A stretch of DNA of 64,000 nt from a virus: positions 11,797-75,796 of the IMG/VR virus record IMGVR_UViG_3300036818_000089, one strand, 5' to 3'. The notes beneath the pieces are model-generated. The model had not been told where the DNA came from and searched no databases. It worked only from the letters and a program-made list of their open reading frames with translations. The position numbers and the translations under genes are program-made. Below, piece after piece: positions 13,299 to 62,977 of the stretch; within the stretch, counting starts at the first letter, position 1; each line of letters begins with the position of its first letter.

Positions 13299-13541
13299 AT
13301 GCCGCGACAAGCCCCCTCACCTGCGTGTGTGTCGCACTCTGACCGCCGTGATCGGCTGCTCGGCTTCCGGGTGTCCGCGCAATGGCTGGCCCGCTGGCAC
13401 CGCGAACTGGCCCGGATCAAAGCCGACACGGGTATCCATCCGCGCGCCCTGTCGCTGATCGTGCTCGACGTGCTGCGTGACTCGGTGCCAGCGATCCGGG
13501 CCCGCGCGATCAGCGAGTCCGATGTGTCCTCGCCACCCTGA
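13299..13541 (+). CDS. Putative RHH-like DNA-binding protein, paralogue of the ParB-like protein
   Basis: Aligns gap-free to 14466..14876 (8 identities in 42 aa); TAGCGT -10-like box 7 nt before ATG suggests a leaderless mRNA. Confidence 0.5.
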   Translation: MPRQAPSPACVSHSDRRDRLLGFRVSAQWLARWHRELARIKADTGIHPRALSLIVLDVLRDSVPAIRARAISESDVSSPP

Positions 13542-13549
13542 CATTTGCT

Positions 13550-13608
13550 GTGCACTTGTGCACAAGTGCACCTGTTGTGTCCGCCCGTGTACTTGTGCAC
13601 AAGTACAC
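13550..13608. promoter_or_regulatory. Two 22-bp perfect palindromes, putative parS centromere/operator
   Basis: GTGCACTTGTGCACAAGTGCAC (13550..13571) and GTGTACTTGTGCACAAGTACAC (13587..13608) directly upstream of parA. Confidence 0.7.
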
Positions 13609-13629
13609 ATAGATGGGAGACCACCGCCC

Positions 13630-14469
13630 ATGGCACGCAGATACGCGTTCTGCAACAACAAGGGCGGTGTCGGGAAATCCACCGAGGTCACCGACACCGC
13701 CGCCGCGCTCGCCATGCGAGACCGCAACGTCCTCGTCGTCGACTTCGACCCACAAGCCGACGCCAGCCGCCGCATGGGATTCGAGGTCAACACTGACGAG
13801 GACTGCGACACCATCGCCGACGTCATCCGCGAAGTGCACTCCAGTCGCGGCGGCGCCGTGAAAGAAGGTCTAGCGGCGAAGGTCATCCAGCAATGCCGCT
13901 GGCAGTTGCCCTACGCGCCGCGGATCCACTTCATTCCCTCCCGGTTCGACCTGGAAGACAGCGCCGCCGACACCAGCAGCGCGAATTCGTTCTTCCGGCT
14001 CGCCGACGCGCTCAAGGGCGTCGACGACCAGTACGACTACTGCCTGATCGACCTGCCGCCGTCGCTCGGCCCGCTCGCGCAGATGGGTTGGGCAGCGTGC
14101 GGAGACCGCCAGGACGGGTTGATCGTCGTCACCCAGCCCACGTTCCCCGCGATCCGCGGTGCACGCCGCACCGTCGAACGGGTCTACGCCCGACGTTCCC
14201 GGCTGGACGTGCCCGACCTCGACGTCGTCGGCGCGGTCATCAACATGACCCGAAACACCCGCCACCACGCCCAACGCATCGCCGAGATCCGCAGCCTGTT
14301 CGGTGATCGGGTGTGGGTCGAGCAGCCGATGCGCACCGCGTTCTCCGAGCAGGACGACAAGAGCCTGCCCATCACCGCATTGCCGCCTGGCTACCCGGAC
14401 CGGGAGGCCCTGTCTCGGATACCGGCGATCGTCGCCGACAAACTGATCGAGCGTGGAGAGGCAGCATGA
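13630..14469 (+). CDS. parA: ParA-family partition ATPase
   Basis: NNKGGVGKST deviant Walker A, VDFDPQ and IDLPPSLG; no N-terminal HTH (type Ib-like). Confidence 0.92.
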   Translation: MARRYAFCNNKGGVGKSTEVTDTAAALAMRDRNVLVVDFDPQADASRRMGFEVNTDEDCDTIADVIREVHSSRGGAVKEGLAAKVIQQCRWQLPYAPRIHFIPSRFDLEDSAADTSSANSFFRLADALKGVDDQYDYCLIDLPPSLGPLAQMGWAACGDRQDGLIVVTQPTFPAIRGARRTVERVYARRSRLDVPDLDVVGAVINMTRNTRHHAQRIAEIRSLFGDRVWVEQPMRTAFSEQDDKSLPITALPPGYPDREALSRIPAIVADKLIERGEAA

Positions 14470-14876
14470 CCAGCGAGGGAATCACCCCAGAGATCCGGCC
14501 ACTGCCCGAACCGCCGTCCAGCACGGCGCCCCCGAGCCGCCCGAGCCGTAGTCAGCGCATGGCCGGCGAGTCACGGGACCAGCCAGCGGCGCCCCCAGTC
14601 CGCGGCGCGCTGGTGCCTCCCGAACTGGACCTGGTCGACCCGGACGCAGGCAACGCCACGGACACGGTGACGCTGCGGATGCGCAAGCAGCACTGCGACT
14701 ACCTGGGTGGTCTACGTGAGGCCATCTCGATCCGATATGGGGTGTCGAAACGGGTCATCGACGAAGCGGTGGTGGTGCTGCTGCGTCAGCACAGAGGTGA
14801 CCTGATCGAACTGGTGTCGCCGATGTCGAAGCCAGACAAGGTGGTCGACGTGGACCGGTTCCTCGGCGACCAGTAG
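14466..14876 (+). CDS. Putative type Ib ParB-like centromere-binding protein
   Basis: ATGA-coupled to parA; Pro-rich disordered N-terminus plus short beta-helix-helix C-terminus. Confidence 0.6.
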   Translation: MTSEGITPEIRPLPEPPSSTAPPSRPSRSQRMAGESRDQPAAPPVRGALVPPELDLVDPDAGNATDTVTLRMRKQHCDYLGGLREAISIRYGVSKRVIDEAVVVLLRQHRGDLIELVSPMSKPDKVVDVDRFLGDQ

Positions 14877-14885
14877 GCGTCGACG

Positions 14886-14904
14886 CGATTTACGCCGTAA
14901 ATCG
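14886..14904. repeat. 19-bp palindrome between convergent genes
   Basis: CGATTTACG-C-CGTAAATCG. Confidence 0.6.
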
Positions 14905-14912
14905 GTGGGGGG

Positions 14913-15506
14913 TCAGGTGCAGAGGTAGGCGTGCATCGCGTGGACCACCTTCGGCGCCAGACCGGAACGGACCTGCGTTGAGTTGCGTGTCTCCCTGGCC
15001 TGTAGCAACGCGAGGGCGACGTACGCGCGTTCGATAAGGGTCAGATCGCGGATCCGCAGGCGGCCAGCGAGTCGGGCCCGCACTCGCTGGGCCATCCACG
15101 GGTCCGGTCGGCGGTGACACAGCACGTGCTGGACAGCGATCGACGTCGCCGGATCCATCACCGGGTTCGCCCACGGGTCGTCGATCGGCAGGTCCGTCCA
15201 GGCTGCCGCTGTCACCCACCGGTGGCGGATCACCCGCGCCTCGTCCGCGGGCGACAAGGGAAGCGAATGGCCGCACAGACCTAGGAACAGTTCCTCAACC
15301 ACGCGGGCGGCTGCGACGGTGACCGGGCGACCGCAATGCAGCATCCGGTCGAGGTGGAACTGCGGGACCCCTGCCGCATAGAGCGCCTGCAGTCGGCGCG
15401 CCGAACCGAGCGACGGGACCGCCCGGTTGGCGCATTGGAAGTGGCGGCGGCGCTGGTCGAGGATGGCTGCCATCGCGCTACCTACCCGTTCCGTCCACGA
15501 ACCCAC
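14913..15506 (-). CDS. Hypothetical protein paralogous to 9832..10911 (start uncertain)
   Basis: GSARRLQALYAAG...AAAWTDLPIDDPWANP resembles the units in 9832..10911. Confidence 0.55.
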   Translation of the reverse strand: MGSWTERVGSAMAAILDQRRRHFQCANRAVPSLGSARRLQALYAAGVPQFHLDRMLHCGRPVTVAAARVVEELFLGLCGHSLPLSPADEARVIRHRWVTAAAWTDLPIDDPWANPVMDPATSIAVQHVLCHRRPDPWMAQRVRARLAGRLRIRDLTLIERAYVALALLQARETRNSTQVRSGLAPKVVHAMHAYLCT

Positions 15507-15534
15507 TGGTCATCGAACAGATCATCGACCTCCA

Positions 15535-15807
15535 TCACACACCGATCATGGGACTCATGTGACTGATACCAGTGATGACGACCATGACCACGACGACGAG
15601 GCCCACGACGACAAGTACCACCGGGAACCGGTTGCGGGGGCCGTGGTCAGCTCTGCTGGACCACTGGTCGTCGTCCAGGATGTCCGGGTCCGGGTAGGCG
15701 ATCGTGTCGTCGTCGTCCGGGTGGTCGGCTGCTTCTCCGATCCGGTTCCGTGGCACCGCTGGGGTGCCCCACTCCTCATCACCCGACCGTCTGCTACGCA
15801 ATCCCAT
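15535..15807 (-). CDS. Small membrane protein downstream of traB
   Basis: Acidic N-terminus and one C-terminal Val-rich helix. Confidence 0.55.
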   Translation of the reverse strand: MGLRSRRSGDEEWGTPAVPRNRIGEAADHPDDDDTIAYPDPDILDDDQWSSRADHGPRNRFPVVLVVVGLVVVVMVVITGISHMSPMIGV

Positions 15808-18319
15808 CCGTAAGCCCTCTTTCGGTGTTGTTTTGTTGCACGCGGGAAGAACCCTCCCCGTTTAGTCCTCGCCTGGCGTTGTGCTCATCGGTCCCATCCA
15901 TGTCAGACAGTGCGACGTACCGCTGGCCCGCCTCGCCGTCGACGCGGCCCGCCCGGATCTCGACCTGCCCATCCCGCAGCGCCTGTGCCAGTTGCTGCGC
16001 CGACCAGCCGCCGTACACGCTCGGCCACTGGGTGCGCAGCCGAGTCAGCACGTCACTGGACTTGACCTTCGGCCGGCCGCCCATCACCGTGATCACGTCC
16101 TCACGGAATCCGTCCGATGAGTTGCCGCCATGGCCGCCGTACAGTTCCACCGCGCGGCGGGTGACCCGATGCAGGTCCTCGACCGACAGGTAGAAGAACC
16201 GCAGTAGCTCGGGGGTGGCGGTGAACCCTCGCGTCATCGCCGTCCCGACGTCACCCAGGCTCAGGTCGGTTTTCGGACGCAACCCGACGGCAGTCACCCC
16301 GGCGCGGTGGGATCCGGTGCCCAGGGTGGCGTCGTTGCTGGTGTGGTCACCGGTCGAGAAGCACGCCTTGTTCGAGGCGACGGACACCAGTTGCCGCGGG
16401 AGACCGCCGTTGGTCGGCTCCGGCGTGGCCATGATGATGGTGTCGCCGTACTTACGGGCCGCGCTCATTAGCAGCACGATCCGTTCCTCGGCCAACTTGC
16501 CGTACTTGGCGTGCAGGAACAGCGCCTGGCACTCGTCGATCACCAGGACCTGCGGGCGCAGCCTGCTGTCGACCTCGGCGATCTCGCGGGTCGCGGCCCG
16601 TTCACCGCCGTGTTCCTTCAGCGCACGGCCGCGCTCTTCGAGATTGTCGTACATGGTCTGGATTCGGTCCATGCACGCACGGACGGTGTCCTCGCCGATC
16701 CCGGTTTTCAGGGTGGCCAGGCGGGGTTCTGCGGGGTCGTAATCGGCGTTGGTGGCCATGACGAAGACGTGGATGTCGACTAGCGGGTCGAGCATCGCGC
16801 CCGCGAGCAGGGCGAGGATCAGCGTCGATTTGCCACCGCCCATGATCCCGCTGAGCACGTAGTTGGCCTCGAACAGGCGAGCGTTGATCACGTTCGCGCG
16901 GATGCCGATACCGACCGGGACACCCCGGAAATAATCGGTGACGACAGTGTTGAGGTTAGCCAATAGCGGATAGGGGGGGACGGGACGGTTGAGACTGCCG
17001 CGGTCGGCGATCCACAGGTCCAGGACACTGGCCTTGTCGTCGGGTTCGGTAGCCCACACCTCCTGCTGCTTGCGTTCCAGGTTGTGGGCCAGCACGACCC
17101 GCTTGCCGACGATCATTTCGACGGGCACACCGCGTGGTAGGCGGATCTGGCAACGCCATCCGTCGCCGTCGCGGGTCGGGCGCATCGGCCACAGGCCACG
17201 GCGGGCGTATTCCTGGTCGCCCGGGTCGAGGTCCTCGGCTGGCCAGCCCTCCCGGTCCTCCCGGCCCTCCCGGGCGGCGGCGAGTTTGGGGATTCCCAGT
17301 TCCTGCAGGGAACCGATGATGGCCGCCTCGTCCGGGTCGAGGCCGGGGCGTGGCAGCAGACGGCGTCGGGGCTGCCGGGGCGCGGGAACAATCGCGGGGT
17401 CGGCCGGGGTATACGTGTCGTCGTGGTCGACACCCTCGGCGTCGACCACGGTGGCCGTGTCGTGGGGGTCCTGGTCCTCGTAGCCGGTGTCGGTGTAGTA
17501 GGTCAGGCCCTCCTCGTTGGGGCCGGTGATCGCGGGCGGCGAGGTGGTCCAGCGGCGGGTGGCGTCCGCCCTCGCCGCGGGGGCGTTGTCGTCGCTGTTC
17601 TCCTGGGCCTGCCACGCGGGGGTGGTGGCGCGGGCACGGCCCACAGCCCACAACACGATCCACACCGCCACCACGGCGACCAGCAGGAACGACGCCCACA
17701 CCAGCGTGACGATCCGCACCAGGTCGGCGATGAACGCGAACACCGCGGTGAAGGGGGCGAAGATCGCGGCGGCGTCGCGGGACATGACCGACAGGGCGAC
17801 CCCAACAACCAGCAGGACCCCGGCCACGCAGCCGATGCCCAGGCCGAACGCCTTGGTCCACGCCCACGGCATGGTGGACCACCACTCGACGCGGTGGCGG
17901 TGCCGCTGCTCCCGGGCATCTTTGGCGCGGGATTCCCACTCCAGCAGGGCTTTGTTGTCGCCGCACTGTTCGGCGCGGCGTTGCATCCGCTCGTAGCGGG
18001 CGCCGCTGCGGGAGTCCCACACGCGTTGTGCCAGCACCATGGCGCCAGCGATGGGGTAGCCGATCGCGTGGCGGGCGGCGGCACCGAGGATGGCGCGGGT
18101 GCGGTGGTGGGTGGCGACGGTGCGGGTGAGACGGCCCAGGGCGGCGGCGTCGGTGACGTAGCCGTCGAGGCGGGCGCCGCGCTGGCCACGCTGGGATTCC
18201 AGTTGCGTGTAGAGCGCGACCGCGGCGGGGTCGGGCGCCGCGTCGGGGCCGATGTGGGGCAGGTGGTGCACGCTGGCCAACTCGTCTGGCCGGCCGCAGT
18301 CGGGTGGGGTTGGCATCAC
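15794..18319 (-). CDS. traB: FtsK/SpoIIIE-like plasmid transfer DNA translocase (TraB-type)
   Basis: N-terminal TM helices, Walker A GIMGGGKS, Walker B LVIDECQ, and a C-terminal winged-helix-like domain (SSDVLTRL...WSAQQLAQAL), matching actinomycete TraB architecture. Confidence 0.85.
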   Translation of the reverse strand: MMPTPPDCGRPDELASVHHLPHIGPDAAPDPAAVALYTQLESQRGQRGARLDGYVTDAAALGRLTRTVATHHRTRAILGAAARHAIGYPIAGAMVLAQRVWDSRSGARYERMQRRAEQCGDNKALLEWESRAKDAREQRHRHRVEWWSTMPWAWTKAFGLGIGCVAGVLLVVGVALSVMSRDAAAIFAPFTAVFAFIADLVRIVTLVWASFLLVAVVAVWIVLWAVGRARATTPAWQAQENSDDNAPAARADATRRWTTSPPAITGPNEEGLTYYTDTGYEDQDPHDTATVVDAEGVDHDDTYTPADPAIVPAPRQPRRRLLPRPGLDPDEAAIIGSLQELGIPKLAAAREGREDREGWPAEDLDPGDQEYARRGLWPMRPTRDGDGWRCQIRLPRGVPVEMIVGKRVVLAHNLERKQQEVWATEPDDKASVLDLWIADRGSLNRPVPPYPLLANLNTVVTDYFRGVPVGIGIRANVINARLFEANYVLSGIMGGGKSTLILALLAGAMLDPLVDIHVFVMATNADYDPAEPRLATLKTGIGEDTVRACMDRIQTMYDNLEERGRALKEHGGERAATREIAEVDSRLRPQVLVIDECQALFLHAKYGKLAEERIVLLMSAARKYGDTIIMATPEPTNGGLPRQLVSVASNKACFSTGDHTSNDATLGTGSHRAGVTAVGLRPKTDLSLGDVGTAMTRGFTATPELLRFFYLSVEDLHRVTRRAVELYGGHGGNSSDGFREDVITVMGGRPKVKSSDVLTRLRTQWPSVYGGWSAQQLAQALRDGQVEIRAGRVDGEAGQRYVALSDMDGTDEHNARRGLNGEGSSRVQQNNTERGLTDGIA

Positions 18320-18379
18320 GGTGGTCCAATCACCTGCGAAGGGATCACCCCCTTCCCGGGGGTTCGGGTTGGGCTGGGC

Positions 18380-18410
18380 GCCGGGGGAGCCCCGCCGGGG
18401 CTCCCCCGGC
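18380..18410. terminator. 14-bp-stem hairpin upstream of traB (terminator or attenuator)
   Basis: GCCGGGGGAGCCCC-GCC-GGGGCTCCCCCGGC. Confidence 0.55.
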
Positions 18411-18414
18411 GGGG

Positions 18415-18582
18415 TCAGTCCTGCGCCGGGCCGGGCACGGCGGGGGCGCTGAACACGTGGAAGTGGATGCCCTGCGTCGGCAGGTACTGGCCGATGATGT
18501 ACGCGACCACGAACAGCACGCCAACCGCGACGATCAGGGACGGCATGGACATTTTCGTGCCCTTGGGCCTGGTTCCAGCCAT
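18415..18582 (-). CDS. 55-aa single-TM protein (Spd-like)
   Basis: MAGTRPKGTKMSMPSLIVAVGVLFVVAYIIGQY...; GAGG RBS; below the ORF-track cut-off. Confidence 0.6.
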   Translation of the reverse strand: MAGTRPKGTKMSMPSLIVAVGVLFVVAYIIGQYLPTQGIHFHVFSAPAVPGPAQD

Positions 18583-18639
18583 GGTGTTTACCTCGTTCTC
18601 TGTTGTCGTTGCTGGGGTTGCGCTGCGGGTATTGGGGGG

Positions 18640-18849
18640 TCAGATCCGCTGCGAGTGGACGGCGGCGGGGGCGGCCTCGATGTGGTAGGCGTGCTGCATG
18701 TTCACGCCGAACGCGATGGACATCATCACGACGAGTACCGCGCCAGCGGCCCAGAGGGTCACGGCCAGTGGCGTGTTCTTCGGGCGCTTCGTCGTCGACG
18801 ACCTAGTGGTGGACCGGGTGGGGACGCTGCTACCGGGCATGTTTTCCAT
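18640..18849 (-). CDS. Small single-TM protein (Spd-like)
   Basis: Basic N-terminus plus hydrophobic helix; inside the transfer operon. Confidence 0.6.
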   Translation of the reverse strand: MENMPGSSVPTRSTTRSSTTKRPKNTPLAVTLWAAGAVLVVMMSIAFGVNMQHAYHIEAAPAAVHSQRI

Positions 18850-18895
18850 GATTGGCTTCCTGCCTTTTCTCTGGACGGTTTCAGGGTTCCTGATT

Positions 18896-19078
18896 TCAGG
18901 AGGTCACTTTGAATTCTTGCTTGGCGTGGATGTAGCCGCCGTCGCCGTTGCTGAACTCCACGAAGACTCCGTTGTCATCTGTGAAGGCCTCGTCCACGGT
19001 GGCCGTTCGGCCGTTGCTGAACTTCACCTCGTCACCGGCGTGCAGTTCGCTGGCTTTCACCACGGCATATTTGGCCAT
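18896..19078 (-). CDS. 60-aa beta-rich hypothetical protein
   Basis: AAGGA RBS; MAKYAVVKASELHAGDEV... Confidence 0.6.
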   Translation of the reverse strand: MAKYAVVKASELHAGDEVKFSNGRTATVDEAFTDDNGVFVEFSNGDGGYIHAKQEFKVTS

Positions 19079-19098
19079 GTCGGTAATTCCTTTCGTTG

Positions 19099-19686
19099 TC
19101 AGGCTTCTGCGCGGTAGCGGGCGGCGCGGGCCTCGACCTCGCGCACGTACCAGCCAGCGTGGTTGTAGGCGAAGTACGCCCGGTAGGGGCTGTGGGAGAA
19201 CCCGTCGTCGCACAACTTGTGGGCGGCGGCGTGGATGGCGTCGTGGAGGCTGTAGATGTTCGGGCCGATGTCGGGGTGGCGGTAGCGGACTGCGGCGAAC
19301 GTGCCGGGCTCGAACTGCATCGGGCCGCGGGCGCCCGCGTAGTTCGCGCCGGAGTGCACCCCGGGCAGGTGGGACTGGCCGTGGTTGGTTTCCACCGCGC
19401 CGATCCCGGCGAGGGCGGCCCAGTCCAGGCCTGGGCAAGTGCGCCCGTATTCGCGGTAGTAGGCCAGCGCTGTCGCGGGGATGCCGGGCATCGACGACGG
19501 GCCCAACCCGGACGTTCGGTGTGTGGCGGGCCCGGCACCCAGGGCGGGACCGATGGCGTCCTCGGTGATTCCGCTGTTGCCGAGCGCCTCGACCACGGCG
19601 GGCCGGTAGGTGATGTACGCGCCCAGCGCGGCCATCACGACCGTGCCGCACACGGCGGCGCAGGCCACGTTGACGATGCGAGACAA
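19099..19686 (-). CDS. Membrane-anchored lytic transglycosylase (SLT-like)
   Basis: N-terminal TM, catalytic VETNHG, GPMQF and AYNHAGWYV motifs. Confidence 0.8.
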   Translation of the reverse strand: MSRIVNVACAAVCGTVVMAALGAYITYRPAVVEALGNSGITEDAIGPALGAGPATHRTSGLGPSSMPGIPATALAYYREYGRTCPGLDWAALAGIGAVETNHGQSHLPGVHSGANYAGARGPMQFEPGTFAAVRYRHPDIGPNIYSLHDAIHAAAHKLCDDGFSHSPYRAYFAYNHAGWYVREVEARAARYRAEA

Positions 19687-19788
19687 TGTGGTTCTCCCGG
19701 TTCCCGAGGTGTTGTGGGTGCTGGGTGGGTCCGGTCGGTGGCGGGGTGCAACTTGGCAAGGTGGCGCCGCCCCGGCCGGACGTTTGTG

Positions 19789-56295: not shown

Positions 56296-56299
56296 CGGG

Positions 56300-56926: not shown

Positions 56927-57297
56927 TGCGACCACCGCGCGTACAGCCCCGGCTCGTCGTCCTCTTGGTGTTCGTGGTCCCCAGCATGACCAGCGCGCAG
57001 GGTGCACAGGAGCGGGCCGCCGAGTTCCTCGGCCAGCGGCTGCGAGGCTGGACACGGGCCAGGGTAGAGCGGCATCTCGGCGAACTGGACCGGCTCGGCC
57101 AGCAGTGGTTCGAGCTGCACGGGCGCGTTGGCCCGCATCTGGTCGCCGATGTCCAGCAGCGCGTGGGTCATCGCCGCGAGCAAGCCTGCGATCGTCTGGC
57201 TGTCGCCGTCTTGCGGGTAGCCGCCCAGATTGGTGACCGATCGCAGGTTCTCCTGGGCCTCGGCCCGATGGTCGGTGGGCACGTGTTCCGTGGTCAC
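56923..57297 (-). CDS. Hypothetical protein
   Basis: GTGA coupling; C-terminal C..CTL..GH.GDH motif. Confidence 0.5.
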   Translation of the reverse strand: MTTEHVPTDHRAEAQENLRSVTNLGGYPQDGDSQTIAGLLAAMTHALLDIGDQMRANAPVQLEPLLAEPVQFAEMPLYPGPCPASQPLAEELGGPLLCTLRAGHAGDHEHQEDDEPGLYARWSQ

Positions 57298-57818
57298 TTG
57301 GACATCCCTACTACGTACCTCTGTGGCTGCGACTCGGCCTGGCAGATGAGCCACATCGCCCGGTTCCAGCGGGCGTCCGCGAGTGCGTTGTGCTCGCCGT
57401 GCTGCTCGGGTTTAGGTGGCTGCCCAACCGCGTCCCACAGTTGCATCAGCTCGCGGGTGAACATGGGGACCCCGCGCGGCAGGTCGATCATCCGCGGGCC
57501 GAGCAACTGGGCGAGGGAAACGTGGTCGTAGGCGCAGTAGTAGCCCCACAGTTCCAGGTCCTCCCAACTCGCGGTCGGGGCCAGGAACTCCAACACCCGC
57601 GCACGCATGCCGTCCAGCGGCATCCATGCCGGGTCGGAGCGGTCCGGGAGTTGGGCGAGCACGTTCTGCCGTACCCACTCGTTCGCGGTGTCGGGGTCGA
57701 AGTCGGTCGACACCGCGTACAACTCGCGGCCGGCGTCGTCGACCATGCCGACCGAGATCGGGGTGATGGTGCTGCCGTCCTCGATGAATTCGAAGTCGTA
57801 GAAGATGCGTCGGGGCAT
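57294..57818 (-). CDS. DEDDh 3'-5' exoribonuclease (RNase AS/DUF5051-like)
   Basis: FYDFEFIEDG, ISVGMV, YYCAYDHV and HNALADARW motifs. Confidence 0.85.
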   Translation of the reverse strand: MPRRIFYDFEFIEDGSTITPISVGMVDDAGRELYAVSTDFDPDTANEWVRQNVLAQLPDRSDPAWMPLDGMRARVLEFLAPTASWEDLELWGYYCAYDHVSLAQLLGPRMIDLPRGVPMFTRELMQLWDAVGQPPKPEQHGEHNALADARWNRAMWLICQAESQPQRYVVGMSK

Positions 57819-57912
57819 CGCTGGGTGGTCTCCGATCAGTGTGGTGACAGATGGGGTGGAGCGGTTCAAGATCAGTCTTGCCCGCCGGTGACGGATGGAG
57901 ACTTCCCGCAGG

Positions 57913-58524
57913 TCACGGCGATGTCCGATTCGGTTCGTCGCCGAGGCGAGAAGCGTTCGCAGCGTCCTGAGCCTTGGCCGTGTTGATGAGTTCGATGACC
58001 TCCAAGCCGAACTCGCCCGGCGACTCGGTGACCGTGGCGTCCACCTTCACCGCAGCCTTCAGCCCATGCAGATCCATCAACCGGCCGAGGATCGACTCAC
58101 CCCGCGCGATCGCAGTGAGCGTGGCCCCGTGGTCGATCAGCGGCTCCCCGTAGATCGGCTTCCCTGCGCGCGGGTTCTTCCCCCCGTCGTCCAGCTCGGC
58201 TGGTTCCTCGCCGACGACCTCCCGCACCACACGCCCGTCGGACACGACCGGATGCGGCGTCTCGATGATCTGCACGGTCCGCTTCCACAGCGCCTCGTAC
58301 CGGTCGTGCACGACCCGCTTGTACTCGTCGCGGAGCGGGTCAACGGTCTCCCGGATCTCGCACTCCAACCGCCTCGCGACGGTCGACTTGGACAGGCCGG
58401 TCTGGTCGGCGATCTGCCGAATGGTGTGCCCGGCCAGGCGGAGGGTGTAGCAGACCCGCTGCTCCTCGGCGAACCCCGCGTTGGTATAGATCGGCGTTCG
58501 CCACGGCTCAACGCCGCCGGGCAT
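57913..58524 (-). CDS. Terminase small subunit-like HTH protein
   Basis: LRLAGHTIRQIADQTGLSKSTV HTH and C-terminal R..L.GL; upstream of terL. Confidence 0.7.
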   Translation of the reverse strand: MPGGVEPWRTPIYTNAGFAEEQRVCYTLRLAGHTIRQIADQTGLSKSTVARRLECEIRETVDPLRDEYKRVVHDRYEALWKRTVQIIETPHPVVSDGRVVREVVGEEPAELDDGGKNPRAGKPIYGEPLIDHGATLTAIARGESILGRLMDLHGLKAAVKVDATVTESPGEFGLEVIELINTAKAQDAANASRLGDEPNRTSP

Positions 58525-58628
58525 GTCCCGGGTCCTTCGTCCCACGCACGGTGGTGTGGATCATGCGGTGGTTCCTCCTGGTGGTGGCCGGTGTGGTGGA
58601 CCGGCAGGGGAGCGGGGCGGGCCGTGGG

Positions 58629-58802
58629 TTACGTGGCGTCTGTGTCGATGAGGTCGGCGGCCGCGCGTAGTACCTCGGCCAGGCGGGACCGGACGATGTG
58701 CACGGTGCCCTCCGAGGTCACGGGGATCTCGATGTGGCCGACCTCGTACTCGGCGGTGTCACCGAGGCGCATGCGGATCGGGAGGCGGCTGGTGGCTGCC
58801 AT
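58629..58802 (-). CDS. Small hypothetical protein
   Basis: Coupled to the upstream gene. Confidence 0.45.
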   Translation of the reverse strand: MAATSRLPIRMRLGDTAEYEVGHIEIPVTSEGTVHIVRSRLAEVLRAAADLIDTDAT

Positions 58803-59083
58803 CAGAGGCGCCCGTTCGCTTTGGCGGCGTGCAGTTCGGCTGTGGTGTGCGGGTGGTCTTTGCCCTTCAGGCCGAGGGCTTTGGTGTGCTCTGCGGTCGA
58901 CATGCCGGTGGCCTCTTGGTGGAGGTTGCCGCACAGGCCATGCACCATCTCGGCCGGGACGTGGCGGCCCATGACGGCGAGGCAGCGGTAGTAGTCGTCA
59001 GGTGCGCCCCACCCGATCTCCGCTGCGCCCGCGCCGTGCAGCGCCCATTTCTTGAGCTGGGGTGGCATGTCGCTGTGGGCCAC
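58802..59083 (-). CDS. Conserved small actinophage protein
   Basis: GGAGG RBS; GAAEIGWG.PDD..RC...GLCGNLH..ATG motif. Confidence 0.55.
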   Translation of the reverse strand: MAHSDMPPQLKKWALHGAGAAEIGWGAPDDYYRCLAVMGRHVPAEMVHGLCGNLHQEATGMSTAEHTKALGLKGKDHPHTTAELHAAKANGRL

Positions 59084-59159
59084 GGTAGGCGCCTCCCCGC
59101 TGATCGGCGTGACGGAGCGTCACACGCCGGACCATACGAGCGGGTACCGCCACCAGCCG

Positions 59160-59507
59160 CTACGACGGCGGGTCAGCCTCGTCCCAGGTGTGGCCACACG
59201 CGCGGCACTCCCGGGCCATCACGCGACCGTGGACAGGGTCGGCGCGCTGGCCGGCGAGGTGGTGGTGCTCCACATCGCCGGGCAGCCGGCAACGCGGGCA
59301 GCGCGAGGACAGGTCGAACCGTGGCAGCCCGCCAGCCTGCTCGGCTGCGGCGCGTTCCATCTCCTCGCGTGCCTCGCGGATCGCAGCGCGGTGAGGCGCC
59401 AGACGGGCTGCCAACTGGTCAGCAGGCGACAACGGCGGGTCAGGTCGATACCACTGCCAAGGCACGCCGCAGATGCTACCGACGTGCCTTGGCAGTTTTC
59501 TGGTCAA
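59160..59507 (-). CDS. Zinc-ribbon hypothetical protein
   Basis: CSIC-like, CPRC and CRACGHTW motifs. Confidence 0.5.
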   Translation of the reverse strand: MTRKLPRHVGSICGVPWQWYRPDPPLSPADQLAARLAPHRAAIREAREEMERAAAEQAGGLPRFDLSSRCPRCRLPGDVEHHHLAGQRADPVHGRVMARECRACGHTWDEADPPS

Positions 59508-59622
59508 CGACGGCGACCAGTTCCGTTCTCGGCCGCGTACAGCATGGACCGCGCCGCGTCGAGGTGTTCGAGGGAGTGGCCGACGATCTCATTCCACGTG
59601 GGGAGTTCGTGCGCTCTCGCCA

Positions 59623-60078
59623 TCACGCCTCACCGCCGTCACTGTGGCCGAGAGCGTTGAGGTCGGAGTGCGCCCGGGCGAGGGCTGCGACGAGCCGTGC
59701 GGCGTGTTGCTGGGCTTCCTCCAGTGCGGCGTGAGCGCTCGACGCACGATTAACAGCCGCCTGGTGGCCGCCCCTGCGGTTGGTGGCGTCGTACAGCGTC
59801 GGGTCGCCAGCGAAGTCGACGCACCGCTGTTCGAACTGCCGGAACGTCTGGTCCAGCATGGCGACGGCGCCGTGGATGTTGCTGACAAGGTGGCTGGCCG
59901 TTGAGGCGTAGGGGAGTGCGGTCTGGGCTCCCTGGCCGGTGGCGTAGTTGAAGTAGCGCACGGTCTCGTAGAGCGTGCCGCCGGCGGCGTAGGTGAGGTC
60001 TTCGTTGTACGGCCCGTGGAGGGGGAAGTGCTGTCCGACGATGGTCTCCGGGTCGAGCGGTTCGGTCCGACGGTTCAT
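59623..60078 (-). CDS. Hypothetical protein
   Basis: AAGGA RBS; VRYFNYAT motif. Confidence 0.55.
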   Translation of the reverse strand: MNRRTEPLDPETIVGQHFPLHGPYNEDLTYAAGGTLYETVRYFNYATGQGAQTALPYASTASHLVSNIHGAVAMLDQTFRQFEQRCVDFAGDPTLYDATNRRGGHQAAVNRASSAHAALEEAQQHAARLVAALARAHSDLNALGHSDGGEA

Positions 60079-60103
60079 GGTGGTGGTGGTTCCTTCCTGG
60101 TGG

Positions 60104-60334
60104 TTAGCGGGTTGGGTAGCCCTGGTGGTCGTCGTACAGGTCAAGGTGCTCGGTGGTGGTGCCGTCTGTCTCGATGACGGTTGCCTCGTACCACCACGGG
60201 CGACGGTCCCGCAGTTTCGGCGAGTCCGGGCGCGGTAGCCGATCCTTGATGGTGACCCAGCGGCCCCACGCGTAGATCGGCATGCCAGCGGTCATGTCCC
60301 GCACGCGAACGCGTCTGGCATGGTCCTGGGTCAT
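60104..60334 (-). CDS. Small hypothetical protein
   Basis: ATGA coupling. Confidence 0.45.
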   Translation of the reverse strand: MTQDHARRVRVRDMTAGMPIYAWGRWVTIKDRLPRPDSPKLRDRRPWWYEATVIETDGTTTEHLDLYDDHQGYPTR

Positions 60335-61017
60335 CTCGTGTCGGGACCGCAGGTGGCGAGCATGGCGGCGAGCGCGGTCTTCTCGCTGGCGGTGACGGTC
60401 AGATGCCAGCGGGTCTTCACCAGGACCCAGCCGGTCGCGTAGGCGCAGTCCTCGCTGCGGTTCGGGGGCTCGTAGATCGGTGGCGCGTCGTCGCCTTTCG
60501 ACCGGTTCGAGTGCGCGGTGACCGCGACCAGCTCGCCGCCGTCGAGGTCGTTGGCGAACTCCTCCCGCTGCGCCGCAGTCCAGCGCGCGGCACCGTCGCG
60601 CCAGGCGTCGGCCAACGGCACCAGATGGTCGATGTCCAAGGCGTGCGGATCGGTTTCGGTGAGGCCGTCGTACAGGGACACCCACCGGCCCGCCGTCACC
60701 GTGCAGTGGTGGCGGGTGACCGTGGCGGTGGACTGGTCCACGAGAACATCGACGCGAGTCGAACAGCCATCCGGTTGGGTGGCCCACCCGTCGCCGAACC
60801 GGTCACGGCTGTAGCCGGCCATGCTGCCGTCCGCGGCGACCGGGAGCGCCCCGAGCTGGGTGGTGGCCGCGGTGGGTGTGGTGCTCGCCGACGTCGGCGA
60901 GCTGTGGGCCATGGTGTAGACGACCAAGGCGATCGCGGCGGCGATGACGGCCAGGGCCGTAGCGGTGTGGCGGCGGCGAGGCGTGCGGGTGCGGGTGCGG
61001 GTGCGGTAGTAGGGCAT
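60331..61017 (-). CDS. Secreted or membrane-anchored DUF1524 (His-Me finger) endonuclease
   Basis: Arg-rich N-terminus plus TM; YSRDRFG.GW, IDHLVPL, FAND and SNRSKGD motifs. Confidence 0.85.
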   Translation of the reverse strand: MPYYRTRTRTRTPRRRHTATALAVIAAAIALVVYTMAHSSPTSASTTPTAATTQLGALPVAADGSMAGYSRDRFGDGWATQPDGCSTRVDVLVDQSTATVTRHHCTVTAGRWVSLYDGLTETDPHALDIDHLVPLADAWRDGAARWTAAQREEFANDLDGGELVAVTAHSNRSKGDDAPPIYEPPNRSEDCAYATGWVLVKTRWHLTVTASEKTALAAMLATCGPDTR

Positions 61018-61547
61018 CAGGCCACCGCCGTCCCCACAGCCGCCACCGCGAGCCACAGCCAATGCCAGGACTGGTCCAGCGCGTACGCCCCGGTGCCGAG
61101 GGTCGGGTTGTCGATCGCGGGGACCTCGAACCCGTTCATGTCCCACAAGCTGACCAGCTGGTTGTCCTGGGTCAGCGCCTTGACCGGGCGGGGCGCGCCG
61201 AGCGTCCAGAACTCGCCCTTGCCCGCGAGGCGCGCGAGCGCGGCGAGAGTGCCGCGCCTGTCGGCCCAGTAGTGGGTGACCGCCGACACCGCCTGCCCCG
61301 CTACGAACCCGGCGGGGCTGATCGGCAGCCGGAACAGCCACCACATCGCAGCAACCGAGGCCGCGGTGACCAGCGTGTAGGAGGCGACGTGCCCAGCGCA
61401 CGCCCGGCGACCAACCCAACCGGCGTGTCCCTTGCGGATCGCCTGGCGGGAGGTTTGGACCCAGTGGTCGGCCACGTTGTGGGCGACCAGCAGTGTGGGC
61501 AGCACGACCGCGAAGGTGACGGCCGCGCCCGTTAGGGCTTGGTTCAT
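61017..61547 (-). CDS. DUF3307 family membrane protein
   Basis: HNVADHWVQT, H..SY, THYWADRR and LDQSWH motifs. Confidence 0.8.
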   Translation of the reverse strand: MNQALTGAAVTFAVVLPTLLVAHNVADHWVQTSRQAIRKGHAGWVGRRACAGHVASYTLVTAASVAAMWWLFRLPISPAGFVAGQAVSAVTHYWADRRGTLAALARLAGKGEFWTLGAPRPVKALTQDNQLVSLWDMNGFEVPAIDNPTLGTGAYALDQSWHWLWLAVAAVGTAVA

Positions 61548-61598
61548 GGAGGGTGATCTCCGTTCTGTCCGAGTGTGGTGACGGATGGGATGTGGGAC

Positions 61599-61784
61599 CT
61601 AGCGGCGGGGGATGAGGGCGGTGCGGCCGTGCCCGTTCGGACACCGCGGGGCCGGGTTTTTCTTGGCGTACCGGATCTGGACGGCGTCGCATGAGGCACA
61701 GCCGTACCGGTAGGCCCTGCTCCTGCTGCCGCCAGGGTCGGGTGGCAGCGGCGACAGGTTGAACGTCTGCGAGATGCTGGCCAT
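61599..61784 (-). CDS. Small zinc-ribbon protein
   Basis: CASC...CPNGH; dispersed motif at 61806..61819. Confidence 0.5.
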   Translation of the reverse strand: MASISQTFNLSPLPPDPGGSRSRAYRYGCASCDAVQIRYAKKNPAPRCPNGHGRTALIPRR

Positions 61785-61846
61785 ATGGGTCCTTCTCCTG
61801 TTCCTTGTGGTGACGGATGGGATTTCGTTGGTACATAAGGAAACGG

Positions 61847-62977
61847 TCACATCTTCATGTGCTTGAGCGGATTGTCGCGGATCCGGTCGGCCGCCCGGAC
61901 GTAGCCCGCTGGGACGGGGGACTGGGGGTTCCAGCGGCCGTGCCCGGCCCACAGCGGCATCGGCACGCCGTCGGACTCGGCCTGCGTGGCGAATCCGGCG
62001 CGCAGGCCGTGCGCCGAGTACTCCCACCAGCGGGCCAGACCAGCCTCACGGGCGGCGCGTTTGACGATCTCGTTGATGGCGTGGCCGCTGATCTTCGGGT
62101 AGCGGTACAGCGTGTCGTTCTGGGTGACCGAACGGAACAGATACCCGCTGGTCACACCCCGCTCGGCCAGCGCGGCGAGGTAGTCGTGAAGCAGCCCGAC
62201 CGGGTCGGTGTCCACGTGCTCGCCGGCCGGGACCGGAACCAGCTCGCCGTGGGCGTCCTTGTCTGTCTTCGACGTGCGGATGAGGACGTCCAGGTAGCGG
62301 TCCTGGACGGTGACGTCCTCGATGCGCAGCGCGGCCAGCTCGGAGCGGCGCCCGGCCAGCGCCCACCCGATGACCAGCAGCAGGCGGTCCCGTTTCCCGG
62401 CCAGTGTCGGCGGGTCGCTACAGGCCGCGGACATGAGCTGGAGGCGGTCCCGGGTGATCGGGGGTGCCTTCTTCTCGCGGCGCCCGGCGTCGACGAGGTC
62501 ACGCTGGTGGCCGCGCTGCACCAGCCGCGAGGGCAGCGTGACCTCCTTGCTGAGCGGCGGGAAGCCCTCGGCCTGGTTCAACGCGGAGATCGCGCCGCGG
62601 TGATGCTTGATCGTGTTCGTGGCGCGGCCGAGGTCGGCCAGGTGGGCGGTGTAGTCGGCCAGGGTCCCGGCCGCAGTGGGGTAGGGGACACGTCCGTTGC
62701 TCGTGCACCATGCCTCGAACTGCCGTCGCACTCCGGCGTAGGCGCGGCTCGTGTTGGCTGGCACGCCGCTGGCGATCCGCTCGGCCGTACCCGGCAGCAC
62801 CGTGTCGGCGGCGGGCACCGGCACGGCGGGGGAGCGGACGAGTTGGCGTACCCGTTCGCGGGTGACACCGAGCCCTGCACCGATCTGGTCGAATGTCCAG
62901 CCCTCGGCGTGGCGAGTGCGGGCCCACTCGCCCCGGTCCTCGCTGGCGGCCGGGGAAGTGGGAACCAGTTCGGTCAC
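61847..62977 (-). CDS. Tyrosine recombinase (Cre-like resolvase type) with N-terminal HTH
   Basis: RDRLLL...RRSEL, SKTD, HGLRAGFAT, HGRW and catalytic GY; N-terminal GWTFDQIGAGLGVTRERVRQL. Confidence 0.88.
   Translation of the reverse strand: MTELVPTSPAASEDRGEWARTRHAEGWTFDQIGAGLGVTRERVRQLVRSPAVPVPAADTVLPGTAERIASGVPANTSRAYAGVRRQFEAWCTSNGRVPYPTAAGTLADYTAHLADLGRATNTIKHHRGAISALNQAEGFPPLSKEVTLPSRLVQRGHQRDLVDAGRREKKAPPITRDRLQLMSAACSDPPTLAGKRDRLLLVIGWALAGRRSELAALRIEDVTVQDRYLDVLIRTSKTDKDAHGELVPVPAGEHVDTDPVGLLHDYLAALAERGVTSGYLFRSVTQNDTLYRYPKISGHAINEIVKRAAREAGLARWWEYSAHGLRAGFATQAESDGVPMPLWAGHGRWNPQSPVPAGYVRAADRIRDNPLKHMKM

What the first reader, a model, noticed from the sequence alone, without database searches (positions are those of the whole stretch)
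13299..62977. Conjugative phage-plasmid: full virion module plus par, rep/ori, Cre-like resolvase and TraB/Spd transfer
Seen: an intact-looking siphovirus morphogenesis and lysis block, a par locus, an iteron-containing initiator, a resolvase-type tyrosine recombinase, and an operon of about 8 kb encoding TraB, Spd-like membrane proteins and a transglycosylase. No relaxase, T4SS or AICE-type rolling-circle Rep is visible. The dispersed motif occurs in both phage and transfer modules, which argues for one co-evolved element over a chance insertion. Established: TraB alone moves dsDNA between hyphae, and Streptomyces plasmid-phage pZL12 is a precedent, so the concept is rare but not unprecedented. 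Inference: the element spreads both by virion and by hyphal conjugation.
Basis: partly seen in the sequence, partly recalled or inferred. Interest (0 to 1): 0.85.

Follow-up and report, generated by a model that had tools for sequence, protein, structure and literature searches.

The report
Phage-plasmid with TraB transfer operon
A 76-kb, apparently circular element from a soil actinomycete metagenome bin combines a complete tailed-phage genome with plasmid-type partition genes and the one-protein DNA pump (TraB) that mycelial actinomycetes use for conjugation, so it may spread both as virus particles and hypha to hypha; Streptomyces "plasmid-phages" such as pZL12 already set the precedent.

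Summary
The window encodes an intact-looking siphovirus head, tail and lysis block. It also encodes a plasmid-type ParA with a small ParB-like partner, an initiator gene with embedded iterons, and a Cre-like tyrosine recombinase. An 8.2-kb operon holds a TraB (FtsK-fold) translocase, small membrane proteins and an SLT-like transglycosylase. No relaxase, T4SS, rolling-circle Rep or serine integrase was found.

The element is larger than reported: it is the whole 75.8-kb contig. The contig closes on itself through a 23-bp end overlap, an ORF restored across the junction, and synteny in a relative. A second, different phage contig (C11) shares that junction.

A 14-nt start-associated motif is almost exclusive to this contig and sits in the phage, plasmid and transfer modules. 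No att-like repeats bound the transfer block, and depth is uniform. It therefore reads as one element.

Caveats: the genome is a soil-metagenome bin, so plasmid state, host and copy number are inferred. The initiator looks phage-type.

It is not new in kind. pZL12 (plasmid, phage and tra-dependent conjugation), pFP4 and pSLE1 are precedents, although this element is nearly unrelated to pZL12 in sequence. I also found TraB relatives in 53 IMG/VR viral contigs. This scan has noted similar TraB-bearing phages in over 100 other genomes.

The parts
1..13300 (+). Left arm of the same element, outside the reported coordinates. It continues 11.8 kb beyond the window start to the contig end. Contents: GT4 glycosyltransferase (1-501), methyltransferase (2620-3237), NAD-epimerase (3244-4218), YqaJ exonuclease (5820-6857), AAA_24/Sak4-like protein (6902-8050), DUF5131 Gp37/Gp68 (8465-9622). 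Beyond the window: CI-like HTH_3 repressor, DUF6221, Prok-JAB, Vut_1 transporter.
   Evidence: Pfam and PHROG hits; motif sites at 3284, 5448 and 6861.
13545..13610 (.). Two 22-bp palindromes (GTGCACTTGTGCACAAGTGCAC and GTGTACTTGTGCACAAGTACAC) directly upstream of parA. Candidate centromere/operator.
   Evidence: Read in the sequence; one also appears as a hairpin. Function is inferred.
13630..14469 (+). ParA partition ATPase, 279 aa, with the deviant Walker A KGGVGKST.
   Evidence: Pfam AAA_31 2.4e-27 and CbiA 3.6e-18. Best tblastn hits are ParA of Amycolatopsis, Saccharopolyspora and Streptomyces plasmids at 40-44% identity; hits in phages are at most 32%.
14466..14876 (+). Small ParB/ParG-like partner, 136 aa. 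Its start overlaps the parA stop.
   Evidence: ORF and ATGA overlap; no family hit. The role is inferred from position, as in type Ib par loci.
14913..23146 (-). Transfer operon, about 8.2 kb, 11-12 co-directional genes, preceded by the element motif at 23170.
   Evidence: Gene calls; TM predictions; synteny with a TraB module on contig C2 of the same bin.
15794..18319 (-). TraB-like dsDNA translocase (841-aa ORF; called as 828 aa in databases). N-terminal helical region with 2-3 TM segments (aa 153-219), an FtsK-like motor (about aa 360-720) and a C-terminal winged-helix-like domain (about aa 725-794).
   Evidence: 54 homologues, many carrying PF01580 or named FtsK/SpoIIIE. Walker A GxxGxGKS and Walker B DE are invariant. 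AF2 motor pLDDT is about 85-97. Top Foldseek hits are FtsK motor domains and the pCW3 protein TcpA (E 2e-12). No hit in 50,697 phage records.
18415..18849 (-). Two single-TM miniproteins (55 and 69 aa), Spd-like by position.
   Evidence: TM prediction; weak syntenic homologues directly upstream of the C2 TraB.
19099..19686 (-). Secreted or anchored lytic-transglycosylase-like protein, 195 aa.
   Evidence: Motifs ETNHG, GPMQF and AYNHAG in the translation. Pfam SLT is only E 0.022, below cut-off. A 66%-identical homologue lies next to a TraB in IMG/VR locus L030.
19789..20193 (-). Membrane protein, 134 aa, conserved with the C2 transfer module.
   Evidence: 53% identity to c2_30613-30918.
20990..21720 (.). 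Dense two-orientation cluster of GCGCTAC/GTAGCGC words (14 copies; units GGCGCTACTAGCG and GGCGCCAGTAGCG). Candidate clt/TRS site for TraB.
   Evidence: Tandem repeat finder; sequence; 14 copies in 0.9 kb against 0.17 per kb genome-wide. The clt role is inferred.
21245..22513 (-). Four-TM membrane protein, 422 aa. SpdB-like by architecture only.
   Evidence: TM prediction; no family hit.
23206..23646 (-). WhiB-family regulator. The true start is probably downstream of the motif sites at 23536 and 23569.
   Evidence: Pfam Whib 5e-26.
25936..27036 (+). Replication initiator candidate, 366 aa, with the origin inside the gene. Iterons (TTCCCGACAGGCCGG family) lie at 26398-26557 and an AT-rich tract at 26557-26600.
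   Evidence: Repeats. Coding bias is lost over 26340-26600. In 7 homologues the same DNA word appears as FPTGR, SRQAG or PDRP, that is in all three frames, followed by a conserved KEEK tract. Atlas lead to viral HTH_36 clusters. No Pfam, NCBIfam, PHROG or plasmid hit.
28195..29364 (+). HTH_31 + DUF5753 regulator.
   Evidence: Pfam 3e-50.
31377..33704 (-). Lysis cassette: Rv2525c-like glycoside-hydrolase-domain protein, papain-family C1 peptidase, and a small holin/spanin-like protein.
   Evidence: Pfam; PHROG phrog_13, weak.
34184..44388 (-). Tail module: beta-helix fibre or depolymerase (34184-35491), minor tail proteins (36140-38427), Dit (38443-39342), tape measure (39335-42988), tail tube (43816-44388).
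   Evidence: Pfam and PHROG.
47270..56295 (-). Head and packaging: HK97-type capsid (47270-48328), scaffold (48998-49813), MuF-like minor head protein (49828-50940), SPP1-type portal (50944-52725), large terminase (54631-56295).
   Evidence: Pfam Phage_capsid 9.5e-18. PHROG portal 3e-63 and scaffold 4e-21. SPP1_portal 5e-13. TerL is 47% identical to Streptomyces phage Yara.
61847..63100 (-). Cre-like tyrosine recombinase, 417 aa, with an N-terminal HTH.
   Evidence: Pfam Phage_integrase 2e-10. Best solved relatives are P1 Cre, E 7e-14 over aa 91-405. Homologues at 37-39% identity occur on many Streptomyces plasmids. It is 27.5% identical to pZL12.36c.
3284..63864 (.). Thirteen copies of the oriented 14-mer. 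The sense strand reads CATCCGTCACCACA, about 20-30 nt before start codons. Sites: 3284, 5448, 6861, 23170, 23536, 23569, 27270, 28062, 33333, 57840, 61574, 61806, 63851.
   Evidence: 13 found against 0.9 expected. Genome-wide, 12 of 14 hits lie on C13 and none on C11.
63871..64000 (-). Contig-end junction. The last 23 nt equal the first 23 nt of the contig. A roughly 105-aa minus-strand ORF is restored when the ends are joined.
   Evidence: synteny across the junction in IMG/VR relative G102.

Best explanation
The whole 75.8-kb contig is one circularly closing temperate siphovirus genome that has taken up an actinomycete-plasmid toolkit.

In the prophage state it is most likely kept as a low-copy extrachromosomal circle:
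- It replicates from an origin embedded in its O-like initiator gene.
- It is segregated by ParA, the small ParB-like protein and the upstream palindromes.
- Multimers are resolved by the Cre-like recombinase.

It then has two exits:
- Lytic: terminase, portal, HK97 head, long tail, lysins.
- Without virions: the TraB hexameric pump, anchored in the membrane, binds the GCGCTAC repeat cluster and pushes the double-stranded circle into a neighbouring hyphal compartment or recipient. The SLT-like hydrolase and Spd-like membrane proteins would help.

A contig-specific start-associated motif ties the modules into one regulatory unit.

Shown here: gene content, folds, homologies, closure and motif distribution.
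Inferred: plasmid state, virion production, clt identity and transfer.
For: Closure and unity:
- 23-bp end overlap, and an ORF restored across the junction.
- Relative G102 (TerL 83%) is colinear from the right-end genes into the left-end JAB gene.
- The motif is 13 found against 0.9 expected, and 12 of 14 genome-wide hits are on C13, spread over all modules.
- No flanking direct repeats around the transfer block.
- Flat Logan depth of 7-9.5 across 13-33 kb.

Plasmid toolkit:
- ParA is closest to actinomycete plasmid ParAs, 40-44%.
- Cre is the best solved relative of the recombinase, and plasmid homologues are abundant.
- No serine integrase, and only one tyrosine recombinase, on C13.

Transfer:
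- TraB family membership, invariant Walker motifs and FtsK fold.
- Synteny with a non-phage TraB module on C2.
- Repeat cluster enriched about 90-fold.

Virion module.

Recurrence and precedent:
- The same virion lineage carries a TraB-like gene in G089 and G110.
- pZL12 transfer needs a major tra gene plus two neighbouring genes (PMC3583192).
Against: - The source is a soil-metagenome bin. A circular contig fits equally well a temperate phage caught replicating. Copy number relative to the host was not measurable.
- All four end combinations of C13 and C11 share the 23-mer, so a 136-kb cointegrate is not formally excluded.
- The initiator looks phage-type and has no plasmid homologue.
- The recombinase could be an integrase. 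An HTH_17/MerR-like small ORF, a possible Xis, lies in the left arm.
- The complete relatives G089, G095 and G099 carry serine integrases and no ParA, so TraB in phages does not imply a plasmid lifestyle.
- TraB misses the Pfam PF01580 threshold.
- The Spd and SLT assignments are weak.
Confidence: 0.55

Rival explanations
1. This is an ordinary integrative or lytically replicating temperate phage sampled as a circular or terminally redundant genome. ParA, TraB and the rest are accessory genes, and there is no stable plasmid state. The tyrosine recombinase is its integrase.
For: - Metagenome origin.
- Phage-type initiator.
- CI-like repressor and an HTH_17 Xis-like ORF.
- The complete TraB-bearing relatives G089, G095 and G099 have serine integrases and lack ParA.
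- Many IMG/VR TraB contigs are classed as proviruses.
Against: - The complete par locus is of plasmid affinity.
- The recombinase is closest to Cre and to plasmid homologues, not to phage integrases.
- No attB-like match of 16 nt or more to chromosomal contigs, apart from a ribozyme-like motif.
- No tRNA in the window.
Confidence: 0.22
2. This is a recent cointegrate, a nested insertion or an assembly chimera of a conjugative plasmid or AICE with an unrelated phage. The transfer block would be a passenger that moves on its own.
For: - TraB homologues in 22 of 60 related genomes occur without this TerL.
- The TraB paralogue and its syntenic module sit in a non-phage element on C2.
- The tetranucleotide signature of the tra operon is slightly less like the virion block (r = 0.80) than like the C2 element (r = 0.86).
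Against: - The contig-specific motif sits directly before the tra operon and whiB as well as the phage genes.
- No att-like repeats, integrase or AICE Rep in 13-29 kb.
- Uniform depth.
- Independent relatives of the same virion lineage also carry a TraB-like gene.
Confidence: 0.06
3. The TraB/Spd operon serves spread within the mycelium (moving the prophage across septa so that every compartment and spore inherits it), or some other phage function such as exclusion. It would not serve transfer between strains. Alternatively, the virion genes are decaying and the element is now only a plasmid.
For: - Established knowledge of Streptomyces plasmids (pSVH1, pIJ101): TraB with the Spd proteins drives intramycelial spreading after entry.
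- No experimental data exist here.
- All ORFs look intact, but function is untested.
Against: - The same machinery performs primary transfer in every studied system.
- The virion ORFs are full length, with homologues at 65-89% identity in G102, which argues for purifying selection.
Confidence: 0.12

Closest known systems
Streptomyces plasmid-phage pZL12 / phage ZL12 (GQ919031, 90.4 kb; Zhong et al. 2010, J Bacteriol 192:3747). Relatives: pSLE1 (PMC4487206) and pFP4 (Chen et al. 2012, Plasmid 68:170, cited in PMC6950372).
   Same: - Circular element of 75-90 kb from an actinomycete.
- Siphovirus virion genes with ParA/ParB, a tyrosine recombinase and an FtsK/SpoIIIE-like tra gene flanked by membrane-protein genes.
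- pZL12 conjugation needs the tra gene and two neighbouring genes (PMC3583192).
   Different: - Almost no sequence relationship. Only about 5 proteins match weakly: recombinase 27.5%, exoribonuclease 42%, WhiB, part of the tape measure and a DUF3307-like protein.
- The TraB proteins are not detectably similar by BLAST.
- The par locus here has a small ParB rather than a 380-aa ParB.
- The initiator and iterons differ.
TraB/clt/Spd conjugation systems of Streptomyces plasmids and AICEs (pSVH1, pIJ101, pSAM2, pMEA300)
   Same: - A single membrane-associated FtsK-like hexameric pump with a C-terminal winged helix.
- Neighbouring small membrane (Spd) proteins.
- A cluster of short repeats as the candidate clt.
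- No relaxase or T4SS.
   Different: - It sits inside a complete tailed-phage genome.
- There is no AICE integrase, Xis or RepSA set.
- The repeat word (GCGCTAC) differs from the published TRS of pSVH1 (GACCCGGA, from my own knowledge).
- Spd homology to characterised proteins was not detectable.
Phage-plasmids P1 and N15, and cluster A mycobacteriophages with ParABS
   Same: - Temperate phage kept extrachromosomally by a par system.
- A Cre-type recombinase, as in P1.
- A dispersed oriented short motif, reminiscent of the stoperators of cluster A and the start-associated sequences of cluster K mycobacteriophages (from my own knowledge).
   Different: - Those phage-plasmids have no conjugation genes.
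- Surveys of phage-plasmids screen for relaxase and MPF with CONJscan (PMC7969092) and would miss TraB-type transfer.
IMG/VR contigs G089 (UViG_3300033475_000033, 51.5 kb, 127-bp end overlap) and G110 (82-kb provirus)
   Same: - Same virion lineage: TerL 48-49%, and in G089 portal 32%, capsid 35%, tail tube 39%.
- Both carry a TraB-like gene, WhiB and glycosyltransferases.
   Different: - G089 carries serine and tyrosine recombinases and no ParA, so it is probably integrative.
- Its TraB is only 33% identical.

Membership tests
TraB / FtsK-SpoIIIE-type conjugative dsDNA translocase | FtsK/HerA-type P-loop motor with Walker A and Walker B motifs | tested here: met
   Walker A G478-G481-G483-K484-S485 and Walker B D582-E583 are invariant in 23 homologues. 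Top Foldseek hits are FtsK motor domains (E 2e-12, TM by target 0.61-0.64) and TcpA.
TraB / FtsK-SpoIIIE-type conjugative dsDNA translocase | Direct match to Pfam FtsK_SpoIIIE (PF01580) | tested here: not met
   Pfam gives only AAA_22 (4e-4) and Zot (3e-3), both below cut-off; NCBIfam gives none. However, many homologues at 40-50% identity carry PF01580.
TraB / FtsK-SpoIIIE-type conjugative dsDNA translocase | N-terminal membrane association and a C-terminal winged-helix DNA-recognition domain | tested here: inconclusive
   Hydrophobic segments at aa 153-219. AF2 gives a helix-helix-helix-hairpin at 725-794 with pLDDT of about 76-91. The domain was not searched on its own.
TraB / FtsK-SpoIIIE-type conjugative dsDNA translocase | Cognate clt with short TRS repeats bound by TraB | tested here: inconclusive
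   14 GCGCTAC/GTAGCGC words within the operon at 20.9-21.8 kb, about 90-fold over the genome density. Binding cannot be tested here.
TraB / FtsK-SpoIIIE-type conjugative dsDNA translocase | Mediates conjugal transfer or pock formation | not testable with these tools
   Needs mating assays.
Phage-plasmid | Complete virion, packaging and lysis gene set | tested here: met
   Intactness is judged from ORFs only.
Phage-plasmid | Plasmid partition and/or replication genes | tested here: met
   ParA with a partner and palindromes. The initiator with iterons is present but phage-like.
Phage-plasmid | Extrachromosomal maintenance in lysogens | tested here: inconclusive
   The contig closes on itself and has no chromosomal junction. 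It is a metagenome bin, and copy number is unknown.
AICE (actinomycete integrative and conjugative element) | Int (plus Xis), Rep (RepSA, RepAM or Prim-Pol) and Tra within one att-bounded element | tested here: not met
   No integrase or AICE Rep in 13-29 kb. No flanking direct repeats.
Cre/XerCD-type tyrosine recombinase acting as a multimer resolvase | Tyrosine-recombinase catalytic domain closest to Cre | tested here: met
   PF00589 2e-10; P1 Cre E 7e-14 over the full core. The target site and the resolvase-versus-integrase role were not determined.
Relaxase/T4SS conjugation | Relaxase, VirB4 and coupling protein | tested here: not met
   No such family in any ORF of 300 aa or more that was scanned.

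The most novel reading that the evidence does not exclude
TraB/Spd transfer modules may be a widespread, selected feature of temperate phages of mycelial actinomycetes, in both plasmid-borne and integrative forms. They would give these viruses a routine second transmission route, without virions and without lysis, through hyphal contacts and septa. This element would be the plasmid-state version of that strategy, assembled independently of pZL12. Phage-plasmid and conjugation surveys built on relaxase/T4SS markers would have missed the whole class.
Probability: 0.3. Interest if true: 0.75.

Novelty: new member of a known kind. Interest (0 to 1): 0.5.

Why it matters
This would be a second, evolutionarily independent example of the pZL12 lifestyle: one DNA molecule that is at once a phage, a plasmid and a conjugative element. 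That suggests the combination is a recurrent solution in mycelial actinomycetes and not a curiosity.

TraB-type transfer needs no relaxase or T4SS, so the standard mobility classifiers (MOB-suite, CONJscan) call such elements non-mobilizable. PLSDB labels the related plasmids in that way.

The 53 IMG/VR viral contigs with TraB relatives hint at an under-counted route of gene flow in soil antibiotic producers. Twenty-two of the 41 tested also carry an HK97 capsid, and 3 have terminal repeats.

The conserved in-gene iterons and the contig-specific start motif are directly testable regulatory features.

Tried and rejected
- Megablast of the phage and plasmid halves against the phage and plasmid collections: no match.
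- TraB against the PDB by sequence, and against NCBIfam: nothing.
- Single-protein scan of IMG/VR with TraB: no pattern hit. The alignment-based scan worked.
- TerL in 60 related genomes: found only in the own genome. Those genomes are a sample.
- Twelve of 13 IMG/VR TerL relatives lacked a TraB hit, but most are fragments of 25-63% completeness, so this is uninformative.
- Initiator against plasmids, and its profile against the PDB: nothing.
- Rfam at gathering threshold over the whole window: no family.
- Search for a lox-like inverted repeat near the recombinase: nothing convincing.
- Sigma-70 promoter scan over 13-30 kb: none; terminator-like sites were at chance level.
- Tetranucleotide comparison of the modules: all r values were 0.77-0.97, not discriminating.
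- The many short 'joints' and loose ends of the Logan contigs have sides of only 20-27 nt in a metagenome. I treated them as cross-matches from other organisms.
- Run X2 holds only short fragments at 95-99% identity from both the transfer and lysis regions. That is suggestive of a relative in a second soil study but gives no linkage.
- Copy number against the chromosome, and read-level proof of the C13-C13 against the C13-C11 junction, could not be obtained with one read-laying run on one stretch.

Full report
**Where the window lies.** The window is the minus strand of contig C13 (75,824 bp), positions 15-64014, in a 9.08-Mb assembly of 287 contigs at 68% GC. The assembly is a metagenome bin. 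One soil-metagenome run holds 94% of the sampled words of 22-32 kb, and a second soil study holds 25%. CheckV-style figures are 95% complete and 8% contaminated. Host assignment therefore rests on binning.

**Gene map.** Raw ORFs are noisy at this GC content, so I trained a codon log-odds caller on long ORFs of the genome and annotated the calls with Pfam, NCBIfam and PHROGs.

Virion and lysis genes are all on the minus strand:
- TerL 54631-56295, 47% identical to Streptomyces phage Yara.
- SPP1-type portal 50944-52725.
- MuF-like protein 49828-50940.
- Scaffold 48998-49813.
- HK97 capsid 47270-48328.
- Tail tube 43816-44388.
- Tape measure 39335-42988.
- Dit 38443-39342.
- Minor tail proteins 36140-38427.
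- Beta-helix protein 34184-35491.
- Lysis cassette 31377-33704: a GH-like domain protein, a C1 peptidase and a small membrane protein.

**The element is larger than reported.** Left of 13299 lie typical phage early genes: YqaJ exonuclease, a Sak4-like AAA_24 ATPase, DUF5131 (Gp37/Gp68), and glycosyltransferase, methyltransferase and epimerase genes. The 11.8 kb beyond the window holds a CI-type HTH_3 repressor, DUF6221, a JAB peptidase, an HTH_17/MerR-like ORF and a Vut_1 transporter. No housekeeping gene was seen. The element is the whole contig.

**Topology.**
- The contig's last 23 nt equal its first 23 nt.
- The same 23-mer ends both sides of C11 (60.6 kb), so the assembly graph is closed on {C13, C11} with no chromosomal link.
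- C11 is a different siphovirus-like contig. It shares only a few proteins, plus mosaic patches of 86-99% identity near the junction.
- Joining the ends restores a minus-strand ORF of about 105 aa.
- The IMG/VR contig G102 has TerL at 83% and capsid at 89% identity. It is colinear with C13 from the head genes through 59623-60144 and then, 6 kb later, into the homologue of the JAB gene that lies 1 kb inside the other end of C13. This favours C13 closing on itself.
- The C13-specific motif is absent from C11.
- A 136-kb cointegrate is unlikely but not excluded.

**Partition.**
- ParA begins at 13630 (MARRYAFCNNKGGVGKST). Pfam gives AAA_31 at 2e-27.
- Its best relatives are ParAs of Amycolatopsis, Saccharopolyspora and Streptomyces plasmids at 40-44% identity. 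Phage hits are at most 32%.
- A 136-aa ORF overlaps its stop (14466-14876) and has no family hit.
- Two 22-bp palindromes sit just upstream (13545-13610).
- This is the layout of a type Ib par locus. The centromere role is inferred.

**Initiator and origin.** ORF 25936-27036 has strong coding bias at both ends but none over 26340-26600. That stretch holds the repeats TTCCCGACAGGCCGG and GGAATCCGCAGGTC, followed by an AT-rich tract. Only seven homologues exist, none of them named. In their alignment the conserved N-terminal 140 aa are followed by a region where the peptides FPTGR, SRQAG and PDRP recur. These are the same DNA word read in three frames. A conserved KEEK tract follows. So the DNA repeat is what is conserved, not the peptide, as expected for iterons inside an initiator gene (the lambda O and SPP1 G38P arrangement, from my own knowledge). 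The protein atlas points to viral HTH_36 clusters (score 0.92, a lead only). No plasmid record encodes a homologue. 'Iteron-containing initiator' is supported, but it is phage-like and cannot by itself prove a plasmid replicon.

**Recombinase.** ORF 61847-63100 carries PF00589. Its best solved relatives are P1 Cre, at E 7e-14 over the whole core. It has homologues at 37-39% identity on many Streptomyces plasmids. C13 has no other tyrosine recombinase and no serine recombinase. 'Cre-like' is confirmed. Whether it acts as a resolvase or an integrase remains open.

**Transfer operon (23146-14913, minus strand).**
- The 841-aa protein misses PF01580 in Pfam. It nevertheless has 54 homologues of 700-800 aa in Amycolatopsis, Pseudonocardia, Kibdelosporangium, Streptomyces and others, many carrying PF01580 or named FtsK/SpoIIIE. 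It also matches plasmid Tra proteins.
- Walker A and Walker B are invariant.
- The AlphaFold model has mean pLDDT 73, with the motor at 85-97. Its best structural matches are FtsK motor domains and the conjugation protein TcpA. It ends in a winged-helix-like unit.
- Hydrophobic segments lie at aa 153-219.
- Upstream are 55-, 69-, 134- and 422-aa membrane proteins, and a 195-aa protein with the lytic transglycosylase motifs ETNHG, GPMQF and AYNHAG. Pfam SLT reaches only E 0.022.
- Three of the small proteins and TraB are syntenic with a TraB module in a non-phage element on contig C2.
- Within the operon, 14 GCGCTAC/GTAGCGC words crowd into 0.9 kb, against 0.17 per kb in the genome. This makes the stretch a plausible clt.
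- No ORF of 300 aa or more shows a relaxase, T4SS or RCR Rep family.

**One element or two?**
- The 14-mer TGTGGTGACGGATG occurs 13 times in the window against 0.9 expected. With at most one mismatch, 12 of 14 genome-wide hits lie on C13.
- It always reads CATCCGTCACCACA on the local coding strand, about 20-30 nt before a start codon.
- Sites precede the tra operon (23170), whiB, a glycosyltransferase, the lysis genes (33333), the recombination genes and the recombinase region.
- No direct repeat of 16 nt or more brackets 13-29 kb. The longest repeats are the motif itself.
- Logan contigs of the source run tile 13-33 kb at 100% identity with a flat depth of 6.9-9.5.
- Relatives of the same virion lineage also carry a TraB-like gene. 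G089 is 51.5 kb with a 127-bp end overlap, TerL 48%, portal 32% and capsid 35%. G110 is an 82-kb provirus.
- A chimera or a freshly nested AICE is therefore unlikely.

**Wider picture.**
- An alignment-based scan found TraB relatives in 53 IMG/VR viral contigs.
- Of 41 tested, 22 also encode an HK97 capsid, and three have terminal repeats.
- Those three complete genomes carry serine integrases and no ParA. TraB in actinophages is thus not tied to the plasmid state.
- None of 50,697 deposited phage genomes matches this TraB. The TerL was not found in 60 related genomes, 22 of which have TraB homologues elsewhere.
- The virion and transfer modules therefore have different histories and were joined in this lineage.

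**Comparison with the known.**
- pZL12 (GQ919031) has ParAB, an integrase/recombinase, and an FtsK/SpoIIIE-like gene with two neighbouring genes. Its conjugation requires them (PMC3583192).
- pSLE1 is a syntenic relative of pZL12 (PMC4487206). pFP4 is another described plasmid-phage (reference 75 in PMC6950372).
- C13 shares only about five weak protein matches with pZL12 or with the Streptomonospora plasmid phiM2.
- It is therefore a new, independently assembled member of a known kind.
- Earlier notes of this scan report similar TraB-bearing phages in over 100 other genomes. These are unchecked AI notes, but they agree with my IMG/VR count.

**Verdict.** This is a real, coherent element. It is best read as a TraB-equipped phage-plasmid, at about 0.55 confidence. 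The main uncertainty is whether it really lives as a plasmid. Interest is moderate, because the concept is published and appears common.

Noticed in passing
window 63332-63409 (minus strand); also G000 C11:60230-60280, C102:85410-85463, C156:28278-28355: A roughly 55-nt motif with the layout of a type II hammerhead ribozyme: GGAC-GAAAC, stem III, GUC, stem I, CUGAnGAG-UCC. It lies beside the Cre-like recombinase and has four copies in the bin. The copies show compensatory changes in stems I and III. The C11 copy scores 20 bits (E 0.3, below gathering) on Rfam Hammerhead_II. The window copy has an extra base in the CUGANGA core and gets no Rfam hit.
   Followed up: partly
G000 contig C11 (60,579 bp), whole contig: A second, different siphovirus-like contig: 1373-aa tape measure, portal, TerL and a 299-aa tyrosine recombinase, with no ParA or TraB homologue. 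It ends in the same 23-mer as C13 and shares about 440 bp across the junction at 98-99% identity, plus colinear mosaic patches of 86-99% over about 7 kb. These look like two related temperate elements exchanging an early or regulatory region.
   Followed up: partly
window 3284-63864 (13 sites): The oriented start-associated 14-mer CATCCGTCACCACA resembles the stoperators and start-associated sequences of mycobacteriophages. Its binding factor is unknown. Several called ORF starts (whiB, the GT2 gene, the epimerase gene) must lie downstream of the motif, so those N-termini are over-called.
   Followed up: partly
window 1-4218 and 27354-28121: The element encodes glycosyltransferases (GT4, GT2), a SAM methyltransferase and an NAD-dependent sugar epimerase. 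This could be a virion or cell-surface glycan modification set. The relative G089 also has GT1 and GT2 genes next to its TraB region.
   Followed up: no
window 60331-61836: Two overlapping ORFs in different frames. The C-terminal part of the 501-aa ORF carries a GmrSD_C/HNH-like nuclease domain (1.5e-12). The 176-aa ORF 61017-61547 has homologues in pZL12 and in six IMG/VR loci. The real nuclease gene is probably the shorter 60331 to about 61000.
   Followed up: no
G000 contig C2:24000-46431: A non-phage element carries the closest TraB paralogue in the bin (47-52% identity over the motor domain), together with a syntenic set of small membrane proteins and a WhiB at 68% identity. It is a likely AICE or integrated plasmid, and a possible donor pool for the transfer module of C13.
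   Followed up: partly
L015 (C13:64001-75824), 4036-4866 and neighbours: A Vut_1/YhhQ-type transporter gene lies in the phage left arm. An earlier first-reader note suggests a DpdA-like 7-deazaguanine DNA-modification cassette there. I confirmed only the Vut_1 hit.
   Followed up: no
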